Shown here piece after piece: positions 28,001 through 28,803 of a stretch of 64,000 bases of DNA. Every line of letters starts with the position of its first letter. The first letter of the stretch is position 1. The position numbers were made by a program, and so were the translations under genes. The notes beneath the pieces are model-generated. The model was not told the origin of the DNA. It saw nothing but the letters and a program-made list of their open reading frames with translations, and did not search any database. Source of the DNA: Octopus vulgaris (Eukaryota); NCBI GenBank assembly GCA_951406725.2, contig OX597822.1, forward strand, positions 98,208,001-98,272,000, read 5' to 3'.

Positions 28001-28803
28001 TGCAATCCCAGAGGCACAATCAGTGCGTGACCTGGGTATTCACATGAGTGATGACGCGACCTTTCATGTACATGTTGCTAAACTGACAATGAAATGTAGA
28101 CGGCTGGCTGGATGGATTCTTAGAACCTTTAGAACAAGAGAACAAGAAACCATGATGGTCCCCTGGAAGACACTTGTCCTAAGCCACTTTGACTATTGCT
28201 CTCAGCTATGGTCAACATCCAGTGTCAAGTTGATCACAGAACTTGAGGCGATCCAACGAAGCTACACGAAGAAGATAGCCTCTATGCAGAATGTAAGCTA
28301 CTGGGAAAGACTCAAGAGATTAAAATTATATTCCCTGGAGCGTAGGCGGGAAAGATATGCCATAATATACATCTGGAAGATCCTGGAGGGAAGTGTCCTG
28401 AACTTTGGCATCGAGAGTTACGCAAATGCCAGAACTGGGCGCCACTGCGTGGTGCCTAGGACTCCAAACCTGCCATCAAGATGTAGGACAAGATTCTGTG
28501 ATAGCCTGGGCTTCCGAGGCCCACAGCTCTTCAATATCCTCCCGAAGAACCTGAGAGACCTGCATGGGGTGGATACAGATGTCTTTAAAATGAAGCTGGA
28601 TCTCTTCCTGTCAGGTGTCCCAGATGAACCAACTTCACGGCAGGAGGGGCAGATGAGGGCAGCTGCATCGAACTCTCTCATGCACCAAATAGCAGTTGCT
28701 AGAAAACCCCCATGAAGTGAAACCAAGTAGCAACACCAAATGGCGGTGCCCCAGCATGGCCACAGCTCATAAGCTGAAACTAGAATCAATCAATCAATCA
28801 ATC
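25011..28803 (+). mobile_element. CR1-clade LINE, family B, near full length (5'-truncated in ORF1), (AATC)n tail
   Basis: ORF1 with [24 protein letters not shown] in 25720-26499 and RT in 26496-28715; 3' motif GGCGGTGCCCCAGCATGGCCACAGCTCATAAGCTGAAAC then (AATC)5; microsatellite on both sides. Confidence 0.95.
25720..28715 (+). pseudogene. LINE family B ORF2 (EN-RT) with a single 1-nt frameshift near 26480
   Basis: Colinear with family A ORF2. LSSLNYHKANWK matches A's [12 protein letters not shown] once one base is restored near 26477-26487. All EN and RT motifs are present. Confidence 0.9.

What the first reader, a model, noticed from the sequence alone, without database searches (positions are those of the whole stretch)
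28742..28780. SINE family 1 and all three CR1 families share a 3' recognition motif with a covarying stem-loop
Seen: SINE GGCGGTGCTCCAGCATGGCCG-CAGTC-AAAT-GACTG-AAAC (rc 2222-2260). LINE B GGCGGTGCCCCAGCATGGCCA-CAGCT-CATA-AGCTG-AAAC. B' has CAGCT-CATT-AGCTG. LINE A GGTGGTGCCCCAGCATGGCCGCG-GCC-TTCG-GGC-TAAAAC. LINE C GGTGGTGC..insert..CATGGCCTG-GGCC-AATACT-GGCC-AAAAAC. Stem sequences differ but pairing is kept. Established: stringent-type LINEs (CR1/L2) recognise a 3' stem-loop, and partner SINEs borrow it. Inference: this CR1 lineage is the SINE's mobiliser. Its exact partner may be a fourth family with the CAGTC/GACTG stem and an AGTAAAAG tail.
Basis: partly seen in the sequence, partly recalled or inferred. 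Interest (0 to 1): 0.72.

Follow-up and report, generated by a model that had tools for sequence, protein, structure and literature searches.

The report
Octopus SINE borrows LINE double-hairpin tail
A short parasitic repeat in an octopus genome ends in the same pair of small RNA hairpins as three families of self-copying LINE elements, which points to the enzyme that most likely copies it; such partnerships are well known, but this one and its hairpin pair appear to be undescribed.

Summary
All five LINE 3' ends and four SINE 3' ends in the window carry the element. A covariance model trained on the LINE ends alone recovers 4 of 4 SINE ends at 20-46 bits; the next hit scores 8 bits. Some distant ORF2 relatives read through this element, and their last residues imply compensatory changes in SL1: one clade plus the window gives 30 of 30 readable pairs, permutation 4/720. 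A pre-registered test on 144 further proteins found 0. The host is an octopod, near Octopus vulgaris. Most likely the SINE took its tail from the A/B lineage and is copied by its ORF2. This is inferred: no LINE with the SINE's own SL2 or tail repeat is in the window, and no mobilisation was tested. Mollusc precedent exists (PMC4824008), so this is a new member of a known kind.

The parts
28741..28762 (+). LINE B hairpin SL1: core 28742-28761, G·G mismatch, CCCA loop, extra basal U-A pair
   Evidence: pair probabilities >=0.99 in 275-nt context
28763..28780 (+). LINE B hairpin SL2 (5 bp, CAUA loop, 28763-28776) and AAAC
28784..28804 (+). LINE B terminal (AATC)n repeat, followed by TA/CATA microsatellite
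25012..28804 (+). LINE B: 5' part with CCCH-like ORF1 remnant; ORF2 (APE + RT) split by one frameshift near 26490; stop at 28715
21904..23234 (-). LINE B', 5'-truncated, 93% identical to B; SL1 21973-21954, SL2 21952-21939, (AAATC)n tail; opposite orientation in the same microsatellite
31503..35151 (+). LINE A: CCCH-like ORF1 (to 32117) and uninterrupted ORF2 31955-35074 (APE + RT); SL1 35088-35111, SL2 35112-35123 (UUCG loop), (TTTAAGGA)n tail
20917..21208 (+). LINE A', 5'-truncated, 98% identical to A; SL1 core 21147-21166, SL2 21169-21180 (UUCA loop)
28880..30977 (+). LINE C, 5'-truncated (RT, stop 30888); long SL1 30904-30934 with bulged A, SL2 30935-30948, (TTCTAAGTTA)x2 tail
2194..2628 (-). 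Full-length SINE family 1 copy: A-box-like 2618-2608 and B-box-like 2575-2565 (against a recalled consensus), CORE-like segment, internal (TA)n/(TG)n, SL1 2260-2241, SL2 2239-2226, AAAC, AGTAAA(A)G repeats
4495..4844 (-). SINE family 1 copy, 5'-truncated; SL1 4543-4524, SL2 4522-4509; carries CCTTGGG after the B-box-like stretch
16154..16345 (-). Old SINE family 1 3' half (82% to the full copy); both hairpins decayed
37870..38014 (-). Old SINE family 1 5' half (78% to the full copy), ending in the microsatellite
58632..59052 (+). SINE family 1 copy lacking the 5' arm of SL1; SL2 59026-59039 intact
20617..37874 (.). TA/CATA microsatellite tracts that flank both ends of all five LINE copies

Best explanation
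The last ~40 nt before the terminal repeats form a cis-acting RNA element of two abutting hairpins: SL1 (two short helices split by a purine·purine mismatch) and SL2 (4-5 bp, tetraloop), followed by AAAC and a family-specific short repeat.

Shown: the sequences, the predicted fold, and compensatory changes.

Inferred from the L2 model (PMC4176376): ORF2p binds this RNA, probably through the basic linker between endonuclease and RT, and starts target-primed reverse transcription in the terminal repeat.

The tRNA/CORE-type SINE acquired this tail from an octopod LINE of the A/B lineage, closest to B, and is or was copied in trans by that lineage's ORF2p. Within this reading, the exact partner is either an unseen B-like sister family with the SINE's SL2 loop (about 0.45 of the total) or A/B themselves, if SL1 is read by sequence and SL2 by shape only (about 0.35).
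For: (1) A model trained on the LINE ends only finds 4 of 4 SINE 3' ends (45.5, 39.6, 23.9, 20.5 bits) and nothing else above 8.4 bits in 64 kb, including the other SINE-like families and the RTE-like element.
(2) Homology begins at SL1. Upstream identity is 11-22 of 60 nt, as expected for a captured tail.
(3) The two-hairpin MFE appears in 7 of 9 ends; the exceptions are the decayed and the deleted SINE copies. SL1 pair probability is >=0.99 in 7 of 8 ends folded in 275-nt context.
(4) On the 7-row alignment, 93.4% of cells pair, 4 pairs have two-sided changes, and slid controls give 18-43%.
(5) LINE C's motif lies after the stop and out of ORF2 frame, yet its translation matches the C-terminus of P0127 at 8 of 9 residues. 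That pattern ends 4 of 120 C-search proteins, all from C's sister clade, with 0 hits in 201,583 internal residues. The bulged position varies while its paired neighbour is fixed.
(6) RT-defined clade X (5 of 5 members, 46-47% identity to A) plus the window keeps 30 of 30 readable SL1 pairs through changes such as G-U to C-G and C-G to U-A; exact permutation 4/720.
(7) The SINE SL1 is 19/20 identical to B, whereas distant relatives differ at several positions.
(8) Mollusc precedent for CORE/V SINEs with CR1 tails and compensatory stems (PMC4824008 section 11; PMC11481361).
Against: (1) No LINE with the SINE's SL2 sequence, loop or terminal repeat is in the window. In zebrafish L2, loop swaps abolish transposition, so A or B may not read the SINE tail.
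(2) All 5 LINE copies sit inside TA-type microsatellite, but only 1 of 4 SINE 3' ends abuts a long (TA)n.
(3) The pre-registered peptide test on 144 new, more distant proteins gave 0 and 0 hits (loose pattern 1). The structural filter was enriched only in the first protein set (18 of 106), not in the second (7 of 115) or third (7 of 111).
(4) In clades Y and Z the register had to be chosen by structure, because similarity alone placed it one codon off. Within-clade permutations there are uninformative (240/720 and 40320/40320), and Z breaks 7 of 40 pairs.
(5) SL2 compensation for A is not significant, and A's SL2 has only 0.35-0.42 probability in long context.
(6) One SINE copy lacks half of SL1, probably by later deletion, but that is unproven.
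(7) No binding or mobilisation was tested.
Confidence: 0.8

Rival explanations
1. The tail was captured from this LINE lineage long ago but is now a relic. The SINE is dead or is copied by another LINE (RTE, Dong-R4, L2) that reads something else.
For: The SINE terminal repeat and SL2 differ from all three families. SINE insertion contexts are mostly not long microsatellites (1 of 4). RTE and Dong-R4 families are also recently active in O. vulgaris (PMC13282606 Table 1).
Against: The two least-diverged SINE copies (95.5% identical to each other) keep both hairpins perfect, while the old copy has lost them. SINE SL2 differs from B by four changes that are all compensatory, which implies selection on the fold. 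The 3' end of the window's RTE-like element shows no such motif.
Confidence: 0.1
2. The hairpins are real but serve another purpose, such as RNA 3'-end stability, termination or a host-protein site, and were kept in the SINE for that reason.
For: Folding and covariation show structure, not ligand. A carries a cUUCGg loop, recalled as an extra-stable type.
Against: The position immediately before the terminal repeat, and the sharp start of SINE-LINE homology at SL1, match the stringent-tail pattern shown experimentally for L2.
Confidence: 0.07
3. The octopod A/B and C lineages share SL1 because one took the other's 3' end (tail swapping), not by descent.
For: The lineages are far apart (patristic distance about 2.0 vs 0.33 for A-B), yet share 17 contiguous-block bases and co-occur in one array.
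Against: C's sister clade already has the long SL1 form, and clades on A's side have the short form. Each form therefore tracks its own RT lineage.
Confidence: 0.12
4. Chance similarity of short GC-rich stretches.
For: The shared block is only 20-39 nt, and few lineages are available.
Against: 0 expected vs 7 observed; held-out model E-values down to about 1e-9, rough calibration; terminal position in both element types.
Confidence: 0.01

Closest known systems
BivaCORE-SINE1 / BivaV-SINE2 with CR1-14_CGi (PMC4824008), re-assigned to CR1-Zenon partners (PMC11481361)
   Same: Mollusc tRNA-derived SINE, CORE-type in one case, sharing a short 3' tail with a CR1-group LINE; stem-loops with compensatory changes; homology length 35-61 bp there vs about 39 nt here.
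   Different: The tail sequences printed in their supplements are AT-rich and, by eye, unlike this element. Their Fig. 5B structure could not be seen. Here three LINE families and the SINE are compared, and two abutting hairpins are resolved.
Eel UnaL2/UnaSINE and zebrafish ZfL2-1/ZfL2-2 stringent 3' tails (PMC4176376)
   Same: Structured 3' tail plus short terminal repeat. Stem sequence is exchangeable if pairing is kept. Distant LINEs (about 60% RT identity) can share nearly the same stem-loop.
   Different: L2 clade, described there as one stem-loop with upper and lower stems whose loop gives specificity. Here there are two hairpins: SL1 loop nearly constant in A, B and the SINE, SL2 loop different in every family.
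Octopus tRNA-CORE SINEs OR1/OR2 (Ohshima and Okada 1994; not read; cited in PMC4824008, PMC4758252, PMC5804259)
   Same: Octopus host, tRNA-like head, CORE-like segment; tRNA-Core SINEs are main contributors to octopus SINE content (PMC8967140).
   Different: Sequence identity to OR1/OR2 could not be tested, and the papers disagree on which is CORE. No partner LINE is named in the passages read; the 2013 SINE/LINE review has 0 mentions of octopus, OR1 or OR2.
CR1-Zenon LINEs (PMC13343379, PMC10294476)
   Same: CR1-group APE+RT elements of invertebrates that serve as SINE partners in molluscs.
   Different: PMC13343379 defines Zenon by no ORF1 and a poly-A tail; A and B have an upstream CCCH-like ORF and short tandem-repeat tails.

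Membership tests
Stringent-type SINE/LINE pair | SINE 3' end homologous to a LINE 3' end, limited to the tail | tested here: met
Stringent-type SINE/LINE pair | Tail folds into stem-loop(s) with compensatory changes | tested here: met
   few independent lineages, and the A stem is not significant
Stringent-type SINE/LINE pair | Same terminal repeat and loop as the cognate LINE | tested here: not met
   SINE repeat and SL2 loop differ from A, B and C; a cognate family may lie outside the window
Stringent-type SINE/LINE pair | LINE ORF2p binds the tail and mobilises the SINE in trans | not testable with these tools
   needs a bench assay
CR1-group LINE | APE endonuclease + RT in ORF2, no RNase H | tested here: met
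   Pfam PF14529/PF03372 and PF00078 only; C is truncated before the endonuclease
CR1-group LINE | RT groups with named CR1 references, apart from L2, Jockey, Rex1 | not testable with these tools
   No named references were retrievable. Only distance from the window's RTE-like ORF (about 25% identity) and from L1/R2 was shown. C-terminal motifs look CR1-like by recall.
CR1-Zenon (as defined in PMC13343379) | No ORF1 | tested here: not met
   A and B have an upstream ORF with weak CCCH hits (E 7e-4 and 3e-3, below Pfam cut-off) overlapping the ORF2 start; bivalve partner LINEs in PMC11481361 mostly have ORF1, so definitions differ
CR1-Zenon (as defined in PMC13343379) | Poly-A tail | tested here: not met
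   tails are 4-10 nt tandem repeats
tRNA-derived CORE-SINE | [quoted passage not shown] | tested here: inconclusive
   box-like stretches by eye against a recalled consensus; ARAGORN and Rfam find no tRNA
tRNA-derived CORE-SINE | CORE domain after the head | tested here: inconclusive
   The CCTTGGG heptamer named as conserved in PMC5786205 follows the B-box-like stretch exactly in 1 of 4 copies that retain this part, with variants in the other 3; no full CORE consensus was available to align
OR1/OR2 octopus SINE | Sequence identity to the published consensus | not testable with these tools
   the consensus was not held; SINEBase supplements were unavailable

The most novel reading that the evidence does not exclude
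A widespread invertebrate CR1-group lineage uses an ancient two-part RNA handle: a deeply conserved SL1 with a purine·purine mismatch as the ORF2 docking site, stacked on a sequence-free SL2. This would let one abundant octopus SINE be copied by several divergent LINE families rather than one cognate partner. The octopod members would also be TA-microsatellite-targeting APE elements, outside the R1 and Tx1 clades that hold most known target-specific APE LINEs (PMC4640811), and would nest in the SINE's own internal microsatellite.
Probability: 0.25. Interest if true: 0.72.

Novelty: new member of a known kind. Interest (0 to 1): 0.47.

Why it matters
SINEs make up about 12% of the O. vulgaris genome, and 13 CR1 families are recently active there (PMC13282606). 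I found no paper naming the LINE that drives the octopus tRNA-CORE SINEs. This finding supplies a candidate, with one copy carrying an uninterrupted ORF2.

The natural series (same SL1 with different SL2 in A, B and the SINE; longer SL1 in C) is a ready-made swap experiment on how CR1-group ORF2 recognises its RNA. The experimental model I read comes from L2 elements. The general principle is established, so the surprise is limited.

Tried and rejected
- Scan of bacterial and archaeal genome contigs for the motif, in case of host contamination: 0 matches.
- Rfam: no family at gathering score in the window and only chance-level hits on the SINE. ARAGORN: 0 tRNAs.
- Pre-registered read-through peptide test on 144 new proteins: not replicated.
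- Similarity-only register for clades Y and Z gave mixed registers, so the shuffle is not used.
- A possible 16-nt upstream extension of SINE-A homology (10 of 20) was judged too weak.
- The bivalve CR1-Zenon tail as the same element: rejected by eye.
- Nimb-type tail of Meta SINEs: only a short shared stretch, rejected against 19/20 with B.
- Protein-level constraint as the cause of the C-terminal peptides: rejected, because the window's motifs lie after the stop and, for B and C, out of frame.
- LINE-seeded microsatellite tails as the sole cause of the array: disfavoured, because truncated 5' ends also abut microsatellite and B' is inverted relative to it.
- TSD for a split SINE: none convincing.
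- Inverted-repeat search of 19090-20640 was swamped by (TA)n.
- PDB holds only L1, R2 and group II relatives.
- Vertebrate CR1/Zenon consensus table: cells cut at 400 characters, so 3' ends were not visible.
- The taxa of the unnamed relatives stay unknown, and ORF1 look-alikes were not obtained.

Full report
Observation. The quoted sequences are present as written. The 20-nt core occurs 7 times with at most 2 mismatches, against 0.00 expected from 100 shuffles. LINE C carries a longer-loop form, and one SINE copy keeps only the 3' part. Whole-SINE against whole-LINE comparison puts the best match about 65 nt from both 3' ends: 19/20 and 30/39 for B, 18/20 and 29/39 for A, none reached by 100 shuffles. 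C is missed by this ungapped test. Upstream identity is 11-22 of 60, so homology starts at the motif.

Anatomy. The region 20617-37874 holds five LINE copies head to tail in TA/CATA microsatellite: A' (truncated, 98% to A), B' (truncated, inverted, 93% to B), B, C and A. A has an uninterrupted 1039-codon ORF2 with APE and RT domains. B's ORF2 is split by one frameshift, and C is truncated. A and B have an upstream ORF with weak CCCH zinc-finger hits below Pfam's cut-off. A and B are 74% identical in protein; C is 40% identical to both. In an RT tree of 52 of 54 sequences, A/B and C fall in separate, fully supported clades, each with an Argonauta hians sequence. A 38-residue piece of A's ORF1 is 95% identical to part of an Octopus vulgaris predicted protein, so the host is an octopus at or near that species (inference). 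SINE family 1 has five pieces in the window, four with a 3' end. It has box-like head motifs (recalled consensus; no tRNA call), a CORE-like heptamer and an internal TA/TG microsatellite.

Structure. Seven of nine 3' ends fold into two abutting hairpins. The exceptions are the old SINE copy and the deleted copy, which keeps SL2 and forms a substitute first helix. SL1 is a 3-bp helix, a G·G mismatch and a 4-bp helix with a 4-nt loop. Its base is extended by U-A in B, by C-G and G-C in A, and by A-U and C-G in C, so that SL2 starts with no spacer; the SINE has one unpaired base there. C's 'insert' lengthens the upper helix around a bulged A. In 275-nt context SL1 pairs have probability >=0.99 in 7 of 8 ends tested. 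SL2 is >=0.8 in the two intact SINE copies, B and B'; 0.68-0.99 in C; 0.62-0.74 in A'; and 0.35-0.42 in A. On the 7-row alignment 93.4% of cells pair and 4 pairs change on both sides. No shuffle of 500 reaches the covariation score, but rows are related and that tool warns such counts are not probabilities. A substitution null gives p 0.007-0.05 (B vs SINE), 0.002-0.02 (B vs C) and 0.18-0.33 (B vs A). A covariance model built from the five LINE ends alone ranks the four SINE ends at 45.5, 39.6, 23.9 and 20.5 bits, with the best unrelated hit at 8.4 (calibration rough).

Evidence from outside the window. No eukaryotic DNA collection was available, and a scan of prokaryotic genomes found nothing. 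However, some homologous ORF2s read through the element, and in that frame six SL1 pairings join first and second codon positions, so they can be read from amino acids. On C's side, 4 of 120 proteins end in GGA-x4-MA, with 0 hits in 201,583 internal residues. These four and a fifth, degenerate member form C's sister clade, so they count as one event. The window's C motif lies after the stop and out of frame, yet translates 8/9 identical to P0127. The codon covering the bulge varies as D, V or A, keeping the paired G and freeing the bulged base. On A's side, an RT-defined clade of five (support 0.99) carries heptapeptides alignable to the window's by similarity alone. With the window they keep 30 of 30 readable pairs through two-sided changes; exact permutation 4/720. 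Pooling 20 distinct heptapeptides from three clades and the window, the three inner pairs are canonical in 60 of 60 cells, the outer two in 33 of 40, and the mismatch is purine·purine in 19 of 20.

Limits of that evidence. The clades were picked after seeing the tails. The register in two of them was guided by structure. 12 of 26 members of the largest clade were scored and 11. Ambiguous codons were resolved favourably, in both data and nulls. A purely structural filter was enriched in the first set (18 of 106 with a recognisable C-terminus; shuffled tails max 14 in 500) but not in the second (7 of 115) or third (7 of 111). The patterns I wrote down beforehand found 0 of 144 in the third set. 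Read-through in the right frame is sporadic, so absence is weak evidence, but depth of conservation is supported for particular clades only. The organisms of these proteins are unknown.

Mechanism. In zebrafish L2, ORF2's EN-RT linker binds the tail stem-loop, stems can be swapped if pairing is kept, and loops give specificity (PMC4176376, part 1 of 5 and passages). By analogy (inference), the double hairpin is the ORF2p handle, and the SINE captured it from the A/B lineage, nearest B (19/20 in SL1; three of five SL2 pairs and AAAC shared). Whether A and B read the SINE depends on which loop matters: SL1's loop is nearly the same in A, B and the SINE, while SL2's differs in all. A tension remains. 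All 5 LINE copies have both ends in microsatellite (20% of non-LINE sequence; clustered, so not independent), but only 1 of 4 SINE ends abuts a long (TA)n.

Comparison with what is known. Mollusc SINEs sharing tails, stem-loops and compensatory changes with CR1-group LINEs are published (PMC4824008: passages, section 11, supplement part 1 and passages; PMC4758252: passages; PMC11481361: passages and one supplement file). Their printed tails differ from this one by eye, and their structure figure and FASTA supplement could not be read. Also seen: PMC3747384, PMC10294476, PMC3531059, PMC5804259, PMC5786205, PMC8967140, PMC9115989 and PMC4640811 (passages); PMC13343379 (passages and supplement searches); PMC13282606 (parts 1-2 of 3). 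Ten searches showed no paper on an octopus SINE-CR1 pair, this double hairpin, or TA-targeting CR1s. Repbase, Dfam, and Ohshima and Okada 1994/2005 were not searchable or read, so the pair may be catalogued there. CR1-group membership is plausible but untested against references, and two Zenon criteria of one paper are not met.

Verdict. The feature is real, and richer than first described. It is a new member of a well-known kind, and the mobiliser claim is likely (0.8) but unshown. Interest 0.47.

Noticed in passing
window 20617-37874: All five LINE copies, from two deeply split lineages, have both junctions in TA/CATA microsatellite, with B' inverted. This suggests preference for pre-existing TA repeats; most known target-specific APE LINEs are R1 or Tx1.
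   Followed up: partly
window 37870-38014 (-) and 16154-16345 (-): Two old SINE family 1 halves of similar divergence (78%, 82%), same strand, break at the internal microsatellite and are complementary. They may be one copy split by a 21-kb nest of insertions; no target-site duplication was found.
   Followed up: partly
window 31503-32117 and 25014-25766: Short ORF1 with a single CCCH-like finger overlapping the ORF2 start. One paper search showed no CR1 ORF1 of this type; the only longer-protein homologue hit was a fragment inside an O. vulgaris gene model named as an adhesion GPCR, likely a mis-annotated repeat.
   Followed up: partly
window 58999-59025: The SINE copy lacking SL1's 5' arm (between two short direct repeats) refolds a similar first helix from upstream sequence.
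   Followed up: no
window 19118-20355 (-) and 2801-3322, 9946-10343, 38887-39202: Helitron-like elements by eye (TC start, subterminal hairpin, CTAG end; hallmarks recalled). The first is inserted in (AT)n.
   Followed up: no
window 828-1229, 11370-11611, 13500-13759, 38299-38709, 41984-42337, 45784-46042, 54158-54347: A second SINE-like family, often next to (ATT)n or (TA)n, without the double hairpin; its partner could be another LINE clade.
   Followed up: no
window 5243-5621, 10896-11253, 39556-39920, 50701-51055: A third, younger SINE-like family with a tRNA-like head (86-97% between copies), without the double hairpin.
   Followed up: no
window 55461-57005: RTE-like RT fragment (label by recall; about 25% identity to the CR1-type ORFs), ending next to (TA)n.
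   Followed up: no
window 2263-2337: 36-bp tandem duplication just upstream of SL1 in the full-length SINE copy only; the unit contains a small hairpin.
   Followed up: no
proteins of clade Z (e.g. P0016, P0031, P0074): After the SL1 heptapeptide these end P/L-R/W-x-stop with x highly variable, as expected if x covers the SL2 loop. Suggestive only.
   Followed up: no
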